Source of the DNA: Candidatus Woesebacteria bacterium GW2011_GWA1_44_23
Lineage (GTDB): Bacteria > Patescibacteriota > Microgenomatia > UBA8517
Direction of reading: 5' to 3'
NCBI GenBank assembly: GCA_001001045.1
Contig: LCIL01000004.1
Coordinates: 1-63,486 of the forward strand
DNA length: 63,486 nucleotides
In this document: piece after piece, positions 55,553-58,581 of the stretch
How the letters are laid out: each line of letters begins with the position of its first letter
How positions within the stretch are numbered: the stretch's first letter is position 1
Notes under the pieces: model-generated
What the model was told of the DNA's origin: nothing
Databases searched by the model: none
What the model saw: the letters and a program-made list of their open reading frames with translations, nothing else
Translations under genes and position numbers: made by a program

Positions 55553-55825
55553 CTAAATGGAAATTTTAAATTCGGTTACGTCCACACCAAGAATATTGGA
55601 GATGAGAATCATGATTAGGTAGGAAACGAGTATGATAAAAAGGCCCGCGATTGCGGATGTTAGTGTCTTTTTGGCGCTCTCGACAGCCTTAGGGTCGCCG
55701 CCAGAGGTTATAAACTTGAAACCGCCTACAAGCAAAAGAATAAAAAGAACAATTCCTGCAAAACCAAGAGCGTAGCTTACAATGTTTTTAAAAAGGAGCC
55801 CCAAATCGGCTATTGTTGCAACCAT
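55553..55825 (-). CDS. VirB2/TrbC-like pilin 8
   Basis: GGFKFITSGGDPKAVESAKKTLTSAIAGL between two TM. Confidence 0.82.
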   Translation of the reverse strand: MVATIADLGLLFKNIVSYALGFAGIVLFILLLVGGFKFITSGGDPKAVESAKKTLTSAIAGLFIILVSYLIMILISNILGVDVTEFKISI

Positions 55826-55834
55826 GTGTAATTA

Positions 55835-55863
55835 ATTCTAGTCCACACAAAATAAATCGGCAA
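55835..55863 (-). promoter_or_regulatory. Internal promoter before pilin 8
   Basis: TTGCCG-17-TAGAAT, 9 nt before ATG 55825. Confidence 0.6.
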
Positions 55864-55877
55864 GAAGAGGTTTGAAA

Positions 55878-56210
55878 CTAAACTGTGGGAATCGCCAAAG
55901 AGAAAATGTCTACATTGAAGAAGACCTTGATCAAAGCTACAATTGCCCAAGCAGCAAACACAATTACAAGACCAACTAAAGCCGCCGTAATTTGATTCCT
56001 CGCACCTTCTGTCTGAGCCTTATCTCCACCTGAGGCAATCCACCTAATTCCGCCTATGACAAGAATGAAGAAGAAGACTAAGGCGGCTACAACCACAATA
56101 AGCTTAATAAGTCCCGAGACGATCACCGGGATTGTAAGCTGGCCCAAATTATACCACTGACTGCCCCTATCGGGCTGTAATTGTATCGAATCTGCAAGCA
56201 ATTTCTGCAT
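55878..56210 (-). CDS. VirB2/TrbC-like pilin 7
   Basis: GGIRWIASGGDKAQTEGARNQITAALVGL. Confidence 0.85.
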   Translation of the reverse strand: MQKLLADSIQLQPDRGSQWYNLGQLTIPVIVSGLIKLIVVVAALVFFFILVIGGIRWIASGGDKAQTEGARNQITAALVGLVIVFAAWAIVALIKVFFNVDIFSLAIPTV

Positions 56211-56218
56211 GTAAGTAT

Positions 56219-56248
56219 ATTATTGAATTATTAGTTTACTGATGTCAA
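56219..56248 (-). promoter_or_regulatory. Internal promoter before pilin 7
   Basis: TTGACA-18-AATAAT, 8 nt before ATG 56210. Confidence 0.5.
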
Positions 56249-56260
56249 GTGTCAGTTGAT

Positions 56261-56650
56261 TTAGCCGCCAAGAGTCGGCAGAGTGAGTTCGAGTAACTTC
56301 AGACCAAAGAATGTGTTTAATATCTGAATTATTGCAAAAACCGCAAAAAGAATAATAAGCCCGATTAAAGCATTCCCAACCTTCCCTCTTGCGCTTTCCA
56401 CCGCTTGTTTATCCCCGCCGGACGAAATCCATTGGATAGCGCCGGTTATAAGCATGAAGAAAAAAACAATAACCCCGATAACAAATCCCAAAATGATGGT
56501 TGCAGGAACAACCTTTTGCAAAAAAGTTACTCCGGCATTTCCGGAAGTACCTACCGGGGGATTTCCCAATATAGGATTTGTTATAGAGCCTCCGGTATCT
56601 CCGCCACCGCCCGGATCCGGTATTATGACTGCAATTAAGTTTCTCAACAT
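56261..56650 (-). CDS. VirB2/TrbC-like pilin 6
   Basis: GAIQWISSGGDKQAVESARGKVGNALIGL. Confidence 0.85.
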   Translation of the reverse strand: MLRNLIAVIIPDPGGGGDTGGSITNPILGNPPVGTSGNAGVTFLQKVVPATIILGFVIGVIVFFFMLITGAIQWISSGGDKQAVESARGKVGNALIGLIILFAVFAIIQILNTFFGLKLLELTLPTLGG

Positions 56651-56651
56651 A

Positions 56652-57026
56652 TTATGGGCACGTCCCTAGCGGCTTACATAAAAGTTTGGCAATATTCAAT
56701 ATACCATTGATTCCCAAGAAATAAGCCACTATTTCAATAATGAATAATGCGGCAATGACAACGACTAACCCGATAATTCCATTTGTTATTTTTTTCCTTG
56801 CGGATTCTAGAGCCTGTTTGTCTCCCCCCGAGCTAATTATACTGATAGCCCCGGTTATTATGCTAAAAACAGCCCAGATAACGGCAATGACAGTTAATAG
56901 AGCAACAACACCCGAGATAAAGTCGGCAAAAAGGGTAATTGGCTCAGGTCCAGGCCGACCCAACTTGCCGATTCCTTCGAGACCCGAGTTCGGAAAAAGG
57001 TTAATATCAGACAAAAGCTTTGCCAT
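56652..57026 (-). CDS. VirB2/TrbC-like pilin 5
   Basis: GAISIISSGGDKQALESARKKITNGIIGL; C-terminal CKPLGTCP. Confidence 0.85.
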   Translation of the reverse strand: MAKLLSDINLFPNSGLEGIGKLGRPGPEPITLFADFISGVVALLTVIAVIWAVFSIITGAISIISSGGDKQALESARKKITNGIIGLVVVIAALFIIEIVAYFLGINGILNIAKLLCKPLGTCP

Positions 57027-57379
57027 TATAGTGTAGGGATTGTGGGTCTAATAATAAAATCCCACTGACCGAAAATAAGTTGTCCGAATATAGCTGCCAG
57101 AACAAATGCTCCGGCGGCAAAAGCTAACCCCAAGGCTGTCTGCGAAATTTTAGACCAAGCCCCTGCAACTTTTTTGGGGTCATCCCCCGCGGACATAAAA
57201 GCATACCCGGCCATAATAAAATTAAATAAGGCATAGATTCCGGCGCCGATAATTAGAATCCATATCACGTACTGTATTAAAGTTCCAATGGCTTTCCCGG
57301 GACTATCGTCGTATTTCCCCAGACCGGCGGGGGGAGGTATTGTCCCGAAGGGATTGATGACTGCTAGCAATTTTGTCAT
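57026..57379 (-). CDS. VirB2/TrbC-like pilin 4
   Basis: AGYAFMSAGDDPKKVAGAWSKISQTALGL. Confidence 0.82.
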   Translation of the reverse strand: MTKLLAVINPFGTIPPPAGLGKYDDSPGKAIGTLIQYVIWILIIGAGIYALFNFIMAGYAFMSAGDDPKKVAGAWSKISQTALGLAFAAGAFVLAAIFGQLIFGQWDFIIRPTIPTL

Positions 57380-57697
57380 TTAGAAAATCAAATCTGATAT
57401 ACCCAAAAGTTCACCTATCAATTTTACTATCCAATATGATGTAAATACAATAACAAAGCCGATTACCGCCGAAGTGATAGTTTTTTTGGCTGCCTCGGCT
57501 TTTTGAGGATTACTTTCCCCGGCAGAGCTAATCATGCCGATACCCCCCATAATAAAAAAGAAAAGCAGGATCAACCCGGAAATAACGAAGACAGCGTTTA
57601 AGAAAAGCGTAACTACCCCTGCGGTCCCCGTGAGGTCCTTACTTGCTGGATTAAAAATTCCCGGAATATTGTCAAAAAGAGTGTCGCCGATGTTCAT
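57380..57697 (-). CDS. VirB2/TrbC-like pilin 3
   Basis: GGIGMISSAGESNPQKAEAAKKTITSAVIGF. Confidence 0.82.
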   Translation of the reverse strand: MNIGDTLFDNIPGIFNPASKDLTGTAGVVTLFLNAVFVISGLILLFFFIMGGIGMISSAGESNPQKAEAAKKTITSAVIGFVIVFTSYWIVKLIGELLGISDLIF

Positions 57698-57700
57698 TTA

Positions 57701-58018
57701 TTAAAATATCTGCCCAAAGAGCGTATTCTCGATTCCAAAAACTTGTCCAAATAGTTGAACTATAAAATACGCAAAGATAATTACCACAAAGCCGATTAAC
57801 GCGTTTGTTATCTTGGCCTGTGCCGATTGCATTGCCTTGGGGTCCCCCCGCGAAGTCATCATCTGTAGGCCCCCCATGACCAGGTAAACCAAGAGGGCAA
57901 TTCCTGCAGCACCAAAAACATATGGCAGCGCATTTCCGATTAGACCGGCAATGTCAGCCGGGATTTTGTTCCCTAAGGCACTTGCTTGAATTTCTTCCAG
58001 GTTTTGAGCTAATAACAT
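57701..58018 (-). CDS. VirB2/TrbC-like pilin 2
   Basis: GGLQMMTSRGDPKAMQSAQAKITNALIGF. Confidence 0.85.
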   Translation of the reverse strand: MLLAQNLEEIQASALGNKIPADIAGLIGNALPYVFGAAGIALLVYLVMGGLQMMTSRGDPKAMQSAQAKITNALIGFVVIIFAYFIVQLFGQVFGIENTLFGQIF

Positions 58019-58029
58019 AAATTGTTAAA

Positions 58030-58581
58030 CTACGGGGTTGCCCCGAAACCGAACTGATCTAATCCCAGTATATCAATTCCAATAAATTTAAGTACAAATA
58101 TCGAAAGCACCAAAAGAATAAGACCCGAGATCGCAGAAGTCAAAAGTTCTTGTCCTGCCTTGAGCCGCTCGGGGCTTCCGGACGCGGTCATAATCATAAA
58201 TCCTGCATAGAGAATCAGGAGAAAGGCAATCCCGCCCCCGATCCCGACAGCCCACTTTAATATATCCGACAAGAAGGCCTCTGGAGAGTCAAGAACGCGG
58301 ATGCAGCCGATGGCAGTGTTAATCCCGTTTTCGTTTTCAGCGCATTTAACACCACCAGTAACCGGTGTGGTTGGATCTGGACGACAGGTACACTCGCACA
58401 AAGCAGAAGAAGCGCATGTTGGATGATATCCCTCATCACAGTTGTCTAGTCTTTGTATGCACTGGTCTGTAAGAATCGGGTTGCAATCACAAGTGCCTTG
58501 GGCGCGGCTGTTTTTCGGAGCGATGAAAAAGAAGATGGAGATAAAAAACAAAACCACAAATAATATTCTTTTCATTACCAT
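58030..58581 (-). CDS. VirB2/TrbC-like pilin 1 with signal peptide and Cys-rich N-terminal head
   Basis: Signal peptide ..NSRA-Q; 10 Cys; INTAIGCI; AGFMIMTASGSPERLKAGQELLTSAISGL. Confidence 0.82.
   Translation of the reverse strand: MVMKRILFVVLFFISIFFFIAPKNSRAQGTCDCNPILTDQCIQRLDNCDEGYHPTCASSALCECTCRPDPTTPVTGGVKCAENENGINTAIGCIRVLDSPEAFLSDILKWAVGIGGGIAFLLILYAGFMIMTASGSPERLKAGQELLTSAISGLILLVLSIFVLKFIGIDILGLDQFGFGATP

What the first reader, a model, noticed from the sequence alone, without database searches (positions are those of the whole stretch)
55553..58581. Eight tandem, highly diverged VirB2/TrbC-like pilins
All share TM1-G..(W/F/M)..S.G(D/S)(P/K)...A...(I/L)T.A(I/L).G(L/F)-TM2, but their N-terminal segments are unrelated. 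Classical T4SSs have one major pilin. The paralogs are old, with no long DNA identity seen, so this is not a silent-cassette system. It suggests a heteropolymeric or switchable filament, or a pilin-built surface coat tuning host range.
Basis: partly seen in the sequence, partly recalled or inferred. Interest (0 to 1): 0.8.

Follow-up and report, generated by a model that had tools for sequence, protein, structure and literature searches.

The report
Known Patescibacteria T4SS pilin gene array
The eight small tandem genes are real. [quoted passage not shown]

Summary
Eight back-to-back minus-strand genes (55553-58581) each encode a two-helix membrane hairpin, and all match Pfam PF18895 (T4SS_pilin). 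They are 19-44% identical and share no DNA repeat longer than 17 nt. [quoted passage not shown] The genome is a Rifle-groundwater Woesebacteria MAG.

This is already published. Quiñonero-Coronel et al. 2025 (PMC12102498) report 441 such arrays of 2-11 pilin genes, about 25% identical, enriched in Microgenomatia, often near dnaA. Wang et al. 2023 showed such an array to be essential in a Saccharibacterium.

What I add: every complete locus among 16 other species-level genomes (14) has exactly eight genes, in the same order, with one-to-one orthology. All eight are under purifying selection (dN/dS about 0.15-0.30). This favours a fixed set of non-redundant, co-expressed subunits over switching or antigenic variation.

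Direct homology to classical VirB2 could not be shown: hhalign probability was below 1% and Foldseek gave no pilin hit. The N-termini are not unrelated, because five of the eight groups start M-x-x-L-L-A. Only Pil1 has a signal peptide, followed by a hypervariable Cys-rich insert.

The parts
58030..58581 (-). Pil1. A Sec signal peptide, then a Cys-rich variable insert (10 Cys), then a conserved C...[I/L][N/D]TAIGC[I/L] motif, then the PF18895 two-helix pilin domain. The start may be the second ATG (MKRIL..., 181 aa, as called in GCA_001793615.1).
   Evidence: PF18895 E 1.1e-09. It is the only member with a signal peptide in all 17 genomes. The insert ranges from 0 to about 110 aa with 2-20 Cys, while the pilin core is 77% conserved.
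57701..58018 (-). Pil2, a pilin-like two-helix hairpin protein.
   Evidence: PF18895 E 2.9e-10. It has a positional orthologue in all 16 related loci.
57380..57697 (-). Pil3, a pilin-like two-helix hairpin protein.
   Evidence: PF18895 E 7e-11. It has 343 homologues; orthologues are 60-84% identical with a nearly invariant core. The AF2 model shows helices 25-58 and 64-98 at pLDDT 76.
57026..57379 (-). Pil4, the most divergent paralogue but among the best conserved between species, including its N-terminus MTKLLA..NPFG.
   Evidence: PF18895 21 bits, below threshold, plus a weak TrbC hit at E 0.56. Orthologues are 63-81% identical. dN/dS is 0.18.
56652..57026 (-). Pil5. Its start overlaps the Pil4 stop by 1 nt.
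   Evidence: PF18895 E 1.1e-07. Positional orthologues are present.
56261..56650 (-). Pil6, with a Gly/Pro-rich N-terminal tail.
   Evidence: PF18895 21.4 bits, below threshold. It clusters with positional orthologues in 189 of 200 bootstraps.
55878..56210 (-). Pil7.
   Evidence: PF18895 E 2.4e-08. Within-group identity is 0.76.
55553..55825 (-). Pil8, the shortest member, with almost no N-terminal tail.
   Evidence: PF18895 E 3.4e-09. dN/dS is 0.15.
56219..56248 (-). A promoter-like site (TTGACA-18-AATAAT, 11 of 12 matches) in the 50-nt gap between Pil6 and Pil7. It could be an internal promoter.
   Evidence: Consensus scan only. Its function was not tested.
52874..55510 (-). An 878-aa secreted Cys-rich protein, 42 nt downstream of Pil8 and syntenic in all relatives. 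Its C-terminal helical domain may be muramidase- or lytic-transglycosylase-like (the VirB1 role).
   Evidence: It has a signal peptide and 498 homologues, all hypothetical, with no Pfam domain. The AF2 model has pLDDT 77.7. The best Foldseek hits are Tse3 muramidase and SltB3, but E is 0.5-5, which is not significant. Synteny is shown.
51150..52838 (-). A 562-aa protein with a signal peptide and at least 6 TM segments. It is a candidate VirB6/PrgH-like channel subunit.
   Evidence: Hydropathy only. It has no family hit. It is syntenic in relatives.
46789..47859 (-). A PrgI/VirB3-like protein.
   Evidence: PF12666 PrgI at 27.9 bits, against a gathering score of 27.
46089..46784 (-). A TrsD-like protein, related to the N-terminal part of VirB4.
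   Evidence: NCBIfam TrsD E 4.7e-07, below threshold. A precomputed PF26593 TraC-like hit is also on record.
44246..46114 (-). The VirB4-like T4SS ATPase.
   Evidence: NCBIfam NF045971 conju_CD1110 at 369.6 bits, above the cut-off of 325. Pfam P-loop_TraG E 2.5e-29.
40906..44243 (-). Two further cluster genes with no family match. One is 918 aa with hydrophobic segments in the middle. The other is 188 aa with an N-terminal TM segment and may fill the VirB8 position.
   Evidence: No Pfam or NCBIfam hit.
38169..40899 (+). dnaA and dnaN. They place the T4SS cluster next to the replication origin.
   Evidence: Pfam Bac_DnaA E 1.2e-64 and the three DNA_pol3_beta domains.

Best explanation
The eight ORFs are the pilin-like (Pfam PF18895, 'VirB2-like') gene array of the chromosomal, origin-proximal type IV secretion system of a Woesebacteria (Microgenomatia, Patescibacteria/CPR) genome. 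That T4SS is of the Gram-positive (MPF-FATA-related) type.

Shown here:
- They are real genes under purifying selection.
- They form an ancient, fixed set of eight distinct orthologous groups, kept in the same order in every related species examined.
- They are packed like one operon, directly upstream of a secreted 878-aa protein and a polytopic membrane protein of the same cluster.

Inferred:
- Each protein inserts into the membrane as a helical hairpin, with both ends outside and the positively charged loop inside.
- The VirB4-driven machine then extracts the subunits and assembles them into an extracellular filament or short conduit towards the host cell.
- The eight subunits are co-expressed and non-redundant, as major plus minor, initiating or tip subunits. 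This resembles the fixed pseudopilin sets of type II secretion or the minor pilins of type IV pili. They are not alternative, switchable or antigenically varying copies.
- Pil1 is the best candidate for a surface- or tip-exposed, host-specific subunit. It is the only member with a Sec signal peptide and it carries a hypervariable Cys-rich insert.
For: Family and context:
- All 8 hit PF18895, as do 83 of 88 array proteins from relatives.
- The cluster holds VirB4 of the CD1110 family above its cut-off, plus TrsD-like and PrgI-like genes, next to dnaN and dnaA.
- The taxon is Woesebacteria/Microgenomates from Rifle groundwater.

Fixed set:
- All 14 complete loci among 16 other species-level genomes have exactly 8 pilin ORFs in the order Pil1 to Pil8. 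Each is the best hit to its positional counterpart, at about 100-170 bits against 35-85 for the next paralogue.
- Clustering of 130 proteins recovers the 8 positional groups, with bootstrap support of 189-200 out of 200.

Selection:
- Synonymous sites are saturated (pS about 0.7), while pN is 0.21-0.31.
- dN/dS is 0.15-0.30 for every group.
- The pilin cores are more conserved (56-77%) than the neighbouring 878-aa (31-62%) and 562-aa (34-47%) proteins.

Operon-like packing:
- Gaps are 11, 3, 0, -1, 1, 50 and 52 nt.
- No repeats or invertible elements were found.

Structure:
- The AF2 model is a two-helix hairpin.

Literature:
- Arrays of 2-11 VirB2-like genes in 383 Patescibacteria assemblies, near virB4 and dnaA (PMC12102498).
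- The pilin series is essential for epibiotic growth of S. epibionticum (PMC10633639).
- A pilus or conduit has been proposed but not yet seen (PMC12857230).
Against: - No filament has been demonstrated for any PF18895 protein.
- Homology to proven pilus-forming VirB2/TraA could not be shown here. The hairpin fold is too simple to be diagnostic.
- Seven of the eight lack a cleavable signal peptide, unlike classical VirB2/TraA.
- Co-expression is inferred from spacing alone. No transcript data could be found, and a promoter-like site lies before Pil7.
- Conserved one-to-one orthology shows non-redundancy. It does not show co-assembly in one polymer.
Confidence: 0.55

Rival explanations
1. Variation model, as proposed by the first reader and tentatively in PMC12102498. 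The paralogues are alternative versions of one pilin. They would be used to vary the surface of the filament or coat, so as to adapt to different host strains or evade recognition, as suggested for Bartonella trwL and Anaplasma virB2 paralogues.
For: - Identity within the array is low, at 19-44%.
- N-terminal tails, which are probably exposed, vary more than the cores in Pil1, Pil3 and Pil6.
- The Pil1 insert is hypervariable in length and Cys content.
- The idea is raised in the literature.
Against: - Copy number (8) and order are invariant in 14 other species, with one-to-one orthology.
- Every group is under purifying selection.
- There is no recent duplication, shared DNA or switch element.
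- Genes overlap or abut, which suggests co-expression.
- Variation is confined mainly to one member, Pil1.
Confidence: 0.15
2. Membrane or translocon model. The proteins do not build an extended pilus. They act as small integral-membrane or wall-spanning components of the secretion channel, a short stalk or pseudopilus, or as accessory membrane proteins. The name 'pilin' would then come only from the Pfam label.
For: - No detectable similarity to solved VirB2/TraA pilins.
- No signal peptide in 7 of 8.
- Other Gram-positive-type T4SSs work without pili (PMC12102498).
- The TM cores are extremely conserved, as expected for tightly packed membrane subunits.
- Pil1 has a weak hit to the Mycoplasma ICE 'pilin-like' small protein family, whose function is also untested.
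Against: - Eight distinct paralogues are many for a simple channel component.
- N-out tails and a secreted variable domain on Pil1 suggest extracellular exposure.
- Pili-like appendages have been seen on CPR cells (cited). These could, however, be type IV pili.
Confidence: 0.25
3. Unrelated small hydrophobic proteins, such as holin-like, immunity or bacteriocin-related proteins, that happen to sit beside the T4SS genes.
For: Weak sub-threshold hits to many unrelated TM families, including a holin family and DUF898.
Against: - PF18895 hits are consistent (83 of 88) and far better than any alternative.
- Synteny with T4SS genes is conserved in all relatives.
- The equivalent genes are essential, together with the T4SS, in S. 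epibionticum.
Confidence: 0.05

Closest known systems
VirB2-like pilin arrays of Patescibacteria T4SS loci (Quiñonero-Coronel et al. 2025, PMC12102498; S. epibionticum ML1 SEML1_0006-0019, Wang et al. 2023, PMC10633639; N. lyticus TM7x)
   Same: - Tandem array of PF18895 genes within the published 2-11 range.
- Intra-array identity close to the published figures (mean 25%, maximum 54%).
- Next to virB4, trsD and prgI, and next to dnaA and dnaN.
- Class Microgenomatia, where such arrays are reported to be abundant.
- No relaxase or coupling protein among the window ORFs scanned.
   Different: Nothing categorical; this is one instance. Pil1 alone carries the signal peptide and the variable Cys-rich insert. 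Five of the eight groups share an MxxLLA N-terminus. The experimentally studied Saccharibacteria array has 6 members, and orthology to these 8 was not tested.
Amplified VirB2 paralogues in Gram-negative pathogens (Bartonella Trw trwL copies; Anaplasma phagocytophilum virB2 paralogues), as cited in PMC12102498
   Same: Several tandem, sequence-divergent copies of the T4SS pilin gene in one locus.
   Different: Those are classical PF04956 VirB2 proteins in diderm bacteria and are interpreted as variant surface forms. Here the family is PF18895 in a monoderm-type system. The copies are ancient, fixed in number and order, and under purifying selection.
Classical conjugative pilins VirB2/TrbC/TraA (Pfam PF04956; T-pilus structures 8cue and 8exh)
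   Same: Small size, a two-helix hydrophobic hairpin with a short polar, positively charged loop, and encoding within a VirB4-containing cluster.
   Different: No significant sequence or profile similarity. No specific structural match. Seven of the eight have no long cleavable leader. There are eight genes rather than one.
Fixed sets of major and minor (pseudo)pilins in type II secretion (GspG-K) and type IV pili. This is an analogy from general knowledge, not homology.
   Same: Several ancient paralogues of one small filament subunit, kept in a conserved operon order, each non-redundant.
   Different: An unrelated protein family and assembly machine. The analogy is an inference about logic, not a tested relationship.
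Mbov_0395-family 'pilin-like conjugal transfer protein' of Mycoplasma ICEs (NCBIfam NF045849)
   Same: A small two-TM protein encoded beside a monoderm-type VirB4. Pil1 gives a weak hit (E 0.002).
   Different: The hit is below the family cut-off (17.8 against 40 bits). It is a single gene on a mobile element, not a chromosomal eight-gene array.

Membership tests
Pfam PF18895 T4SS_pilin | Match to the family HMM at or above the gathering score (26.6 bits) | tested here: met
   Six of 8 score above it (32-42 bits). Pil4 and Pil6 score 21 bits. 83 of 88 array proteins from the window and relatives match at E<=1. Precomputed PF18895 hits are on record for the same genes.
Pfam PF18895 T4SS_pilin | Two hydrophobic helices joined by a short polar loop | tested here: met
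   Hydropathy. The AF2 model of Pil3 has helices 25-58 and 64-98.
Patescibacteria VirB2-like pilin array (PMC12102498) | 2-11 pilin genes in tandem, with low identity within the array (mean about 25%, maximum 54%) | tested here: met
   8 genes at 19-44% identity; the published definition is quoted.
Patescibacteria VirB2-like pilin array (PMC12102498) | Located with Patescibacteria-type virB4, trsD and prgI, often near dnaA and dnaN | tested here: met
   VirB4 CD1110 family at 369.6 bits, TrsD-like and PrgI in the same minus-strand cluster, which ends 7 nt from dnaN.
Patescibacteria VirB2-like pilin array (PMC12102498) | Host genome belongs to Patescibacteria (Microgenomatia) | tested here: met
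   Homologues and loci are named Candidatus Woesebacteria or Microgenomates. The locus is identical in GCA_001793615.1 from Rifle groundwater.
Classical VirB2/TrbC pilin (Pfam PF04956) | Significant sequence or profile similarity to VirB2/TrbC | tested here: not met
   Window proteins hit TrbC only at E 0.2-0.56. 8 of 88 relatives hit it, best E 5.9e-05, which is within the noise of other TM families. hhalign against a 25-sequence VirB2 profile gave probability 0.2-0.4%. PDB profile searches found no pilin. The VirB2 profile was narrow (rhizobial sequences only), so remote homology is not excluded.
Classical VirB2/TrbC pilin (Pfam PF04956) | Specific structural match to solved conjugative pilins | tested here: inconclusive
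   Foldseek against PDB gave no hit with E<1 and no VirB2/TraA chain in the top 50. The hairpin fold is too simple to discriminate.
Classical VirB2/TrbC pilin (Pfam PF04956) | Long N-terminal leader removed by signal peptidase | tested here: not met
   Only Pil1 has a Sec-type signal peptide. The other seven start with short polar or amphipathic tails. This was judged by reading the sequence and by hydropathy; no dedicated predictor was available.
Classical VirB2/TrbC pilin (Pfam PF04956) | Polymerises into an extracellular pilus | not testable with these tools
   This needs multimer modelling, cryo-EM or cryo-ET, or shearing with proteomics. The literature says it is not yet shown for Patescibacteria.
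Antigenically or host-range variable pilin repertoires (Bartonella trwL, Anaplasma virB2 type) | Lineage-specific duplication, variable copy number, diversifying evolution | tested here: not met
   Copy number is 8 and the order is identical in all 14 complete loci. The 8 groups are monophyletic by clustering. dN/dS is 0.15-0.30. No shared DNA was found.

The most novel reading that the evidence does not exclude
The eight pilin-like proteins are obligate partners in one hetero-oligomeric T4SS filament or conduit with a fixed architecture. Their conserved gene order would reflect assembly order or stoichiometry. Pil1 would be the tip subunit, with its hypervariable Cys-rich domain setting host specificity. 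The shared M-x-x-L-L-A N-terminus of five members would be a recognition or processing signal for the machine. That would be the first multi-subunit 'VirB2-type' filament, with a logic like that of type II or type IV pilus systems, in a monoderm epibiont.
Probability: 0.2. Interest if true: 0.7.

Novelty: already known. Interest (0 to 1): 0.3.

Why it matters
Patescibacteria/CPR are a large, mostly uncultured part of bacterial diversity that lives attached to host cells. Their chromosomal T4SS and its pilin series are essential for that lifestyle in the one species tested (PMC10633639). A pilus on a Gram-positive-type T4SS would be unprecedented (PMC12857230).

This window adds no new kind of system. 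It does show, within Woesebacteria, that the array is a fixed eight-member set with conserved order and purifying selection. That narrows the hypotheses: specialised, co-assembled subunits become more likely than variable alternatives. It also points to Pil1's variable domain as the place to look for host specificity.

Tried and rejected
1. PDB sequence searches with profiles of the 8 paralogues and of 88 array proteins gave only spurious hits and no pilin.
2. Foldseek of the Pil3 model against PDB gave only generic hairpins with E>1.
3. hhalign against a VirB2 alignment built from homologues of the T-pilus protein (8cue) gave probability below 1%. That profile was narrow, so this does not disprove remote homology.
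4. Transcript evidence: no RNA run holds the locus, and four groundwater metatranscriptome runs gave zero coverage.
5. I looked for this assembly (GCA_001793615, MGIF01) in the held supplements of PMC12102498 and did not find it.
6. The alignment and the HMM are the valid evidence.
7. The 878-aa neighbour has no Pfam, NCBIfam or PDB sequence hit. The best Foldseek hits, Tse3 muramidase and SltB3, are not significant, so 'VirB1-like hydrolase' remains a lead only.
8. A first NJ bootstrap script timed out. I replaced it with UPGMA clustering and bootstrap.
9. A cassette or phase-variation mechanism was rejected: no repeats longer than 17 nt and no convincing inverted repeats.

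
Full report
**1. What is there**

The span 55553-58581 holds eight consecutive minus-strand ORFs of 90-183 aa. I call them Pil1 to Pil8 in transcription order:
- Pil1 58581-58030
- Pil2 58018-57701
- Pil3 57697-57380
- Pil4 57379-57026
- Pil5 57026-56652
- Pil6 56650-56261
- Pil7 56210-55878
- Pil8 55825-55553

The gaps between them are 11, 3, 0, -1, 1, 50 and 52 nt, and 42 nt separate Pil8 from the next gene.

All eight match Pfam PF18895 'T4SS_pilin', with E from 7e-11 to 3.7e-4. Six are above the gathering score; Pil4 and Pil6 reach 21 bits against 26.6. Each has two hydrophobic helices around a short polar loop. An AlphaFold2 model of Pil3 (pLDDT 76) is a two-helix hairpin with a short N-terminal helix.

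The aligned cores share GG-x-x-x-I-SSGGD(P/K)-x-A-x-ES-A-x-x-K-I-T-x-A-x-IGL with one invariant Gly. Pairwise identity is 19-44%. The longest DNA match between copies is 17 nt. A profile of the eight finds no further copy in the window.

**2. Context and organism**

The array is the upstream end of a minus-strand cluster that runs to within 7 nt of dnaN. On the other side of dnaA and dnaN lie rnpA, yidC and jag, which is an oriC neighbourhood. Downstream of Pil8 the cluster holds, in order:
- an 878-aa secreted Cys-rich protein
- a 562-aa protein with a signal peptide and at least 6 TM segments, a VirB6-like candidate by hydropathy only
- a plus-strand gene of unknown function
- a gene of about 260 aa
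- a PrgI/VirB3-like gene (PF12666)
- a TrsD-like gene
- a VirB4 ATPase of the Gram-positive CD1110 family (369.6 bits against a cut-off of 325)
- a 918-aa gene and a 188-aa gene with no family match

No relaxase or coupling protein appeared among the window ORFs I scanned.

Identical DNA occurs in Rifle groundwater assemblies, including GCA_001793615.1. Homologues are named Candidatus Woesebacteria or Microgenomates.

**3. This is already described**

Quiñonero-Coronel et al. 2025 (PMC12102498) searched 3,035 Patescibacteria genomes with PF04956 and PF18895. They report:
- 441 'VirB2 arrays' of 2-11 pilin genes in 383 assemblies
- particular abundance in Microgenomatia and Saccharimonadia
- mean identity of 25% and a maximum of 54% within arrays
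- association with virB4, trsD and prgI, and with dnaA, dnaN and rnpA

Wang et al. [quoted passage not shown] These subunits are essential for epibiotic growth. [quoted passage not shown] It notes that a pilus is still only a possibility.

The window is a textbook instance of that published pattern. I could not confirm that this particular assembly is in their tables.

**4. What I could add**

A scan of one genome per species returned 16 related loci. Every locus that is not cut by a contig end (14 of 16) carries exactly eight pilin ORFs in the same order. Each is the best match to its positional counterpart in the window, at about 100-170 bits against 35-85 for the next-best paralogue.

Clustering 130 array proteins on 94 core columns reproduces the eight positional groups exactly, with bootstrap support of 189-200 out of 200. 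Within-group identity is 0.56-0.77 and between-group identity is 0.15-0.40.

Synonymous sites between species are saturated (pS about 0.7), while pN is only 0.21-0.31. For unsaturated pairs dN/dS is 0.15-0.30 in all eight groups.

Flanking synteny is conserved: bPH, SpoIID, the array, the 878-aa gene, then the 562-aa gene. The pilin cores are better conserved than those neighbours.

So the eight are ancient, individually maintained and non-interchangeable.

**5. Differences among the eight**

Pil1 is the only member with a Sec signal peptide, and this holds in all species. It has a conserved C...[I/L][N/D]TAIGC[I/L] motif just before helix 1. Between the signal peptide and that motif lies a hypervariable insert of 0 to about 110 aa with 2-20 cysteines. 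Its pilin core is nevertheless the most conserved, at 0.77.

Pil2, 4, 5, 6 and 7, and some Pil3 orthologues, begin with M-x-x-L-L-A-[Q/D/E]. Whether this tail is a processing or recognition signal is unknown.

Pil4 scores poorly against Pfam but is highly conserved along its whole length.

**6. Is it VirB2?**

Membership of PF18895 is met. Homology to classical VirB2/TrbC could not be shown here:
- Pfam TrbC hits are E 0.2-0.56 in the window. They occur in 8 of 88 relatives, with a best E of 5.9e-05, amid similar noise from unrelated TM families.
- Profile searches of PDB sequences find no pilin.
- hhalign against a 25-sequence VirB2 profile, seeded from the T-pilus protein 8cue, gives probability below 1%.
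- Foldseek returns only generic hairpins.

The VirB2 profile was narrow and the fold is trivially simple, so this result is 'not demonstrated', not 'excluded'. The claim that the array works like a pilin rests on topology, genomic association and the literature. It does not rest on measured similarity.

**7. Mechanism**

My best explanation (confidence about 0.55) is a co-expressed, fixed set of specialised subunits. They would be inserted into the membrane N-out/C-out and assembled by the VirB4 machine into a filament or short conduit towards the host. Pil1 would be the exposed, host-facing member.

- Shown: family, context, fixed orthology, purifying selection and tight packing.
- Inferred: co-expression, membrane topology, polymerisation and division of labour.

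The variation or switching model is disfavoured by constant number and order, purifying selection and the absence of any switch element. It could survive in a restricted form for the Pil1 insert. A non-filament, membrane or translocon role remains a serious rival (about 0.25).

No transcript data exist for this organism in the runs available.

**8. Neighbour of interest**

The 878-aa protein has 498 homologues. All are unannotated and none has a Pfam domain. Its AF2 model (pLDDT 77.7) has a confident helical C-terminal domain. The best Foldseek hits for that model are the Tse3 peptidoglycan muramidase and the lytic transglycosylase SltB3, but at E 0.5-5. A VirB1-like wall-cutting role is a lead only.

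**9. Verdict**

- The feature is real and was read correctly as a pilin-family array.
- The direct 'VirB2/TrbC' similarity is not measurable.
- The N-termini are not unrelated.
- The phenomenon is already published.
- Interest is modest at 0.3. The open question is whether a hetero-oligomeric T4SS filament exists in monoderm epibionts. That question is genuine but is already recognised by the field.

Noticed in passing
window 58641-60218 (+): The SpoIID-domain gene, divergent from the array, is broken in the window. Compared with near-identical assemblies (L001, L005; 571 aa), the window lacks 138 nt (46 aa, FLFSD...ENLTK). The junction creates an in-frame TAA at 59016-59018. This is either a strain variant or an assembly artefact.
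   Followed up: partly
window 55878-58018 (-); L007-L022 orthologues: Five of the eight pilin groups (Pil2, 4, 5, 6, 7) and some Pil3 orthologues start with a conserved M-x-x-L-L-A-[Q/D/E] motif, followed by a Gly/Pro-rich linker. It could be a processing or recognition signal. I found no published description of it in the papers read.
   Followed up: partly
window 58300-58500 (-), within Pil1; L007-L022: Pil1 carries, between its signal peptide and the conserved TAIGC motif, an insert that ranges from 0 to about 110 aa and from 2 to 20 cysteines between species. In L018 it contains repeated CG..Q.CCSP.F.C modules.
   Followed up: partly
window 52874-55510 (-): The 878-aa secreted Cys-rich protein belongs to a family restricted to Patescibacteria (498 homologues, no annotation). 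It is always directly downstream of the array. The best structural matches of its C-terminal domain are muramidases or lytic transglycosylases, but they are not significant.
   Followed up: partly
window 56219-56248 (-): A near-consensus sigma-70-like site (TTGACA-18-AATAAT) lies in the Pil6-Pil7 gap. It suggests that Pil7, Pil8 and downstream genes may also have their own promoter.
   Followed up: no
L007, L010, L017, L020: Several public MAGs labelled 'uncultured Gammaproteobacteria' or 'Alphaproteobacteria' carry this Woesebacteria-type locus with full synteny. The records are probably mislabelled.
   Followed up: no
window 25893-26951 (+): A single ORF combines a Sua5/YciO/YrdC (TsaC-like) domain with a TsaE domain. 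It is followed by TsaD at 26948-27976. This is an unusual fusion of two t6A-pathway proteins.
   Followed up: no
window 62991-63360 (-) and 17837-17910 (+): tmRNA (157.8 bits) and tRNA-Cys(GCA). In related contigs smpB lies just beyond the tmRNA side of the locus.
   Followed up: no
window 48051-48887 (-) and 48772-51147 (+): The longest-ORF calls overlap by about 115 nt at their starts. Gene calls in identical contigs are shorter (259 aa and 752 aa), so the true starts are probably internal. Both proteins have no family match, although they lie inside the T4SS cluster.
   Followed up: no
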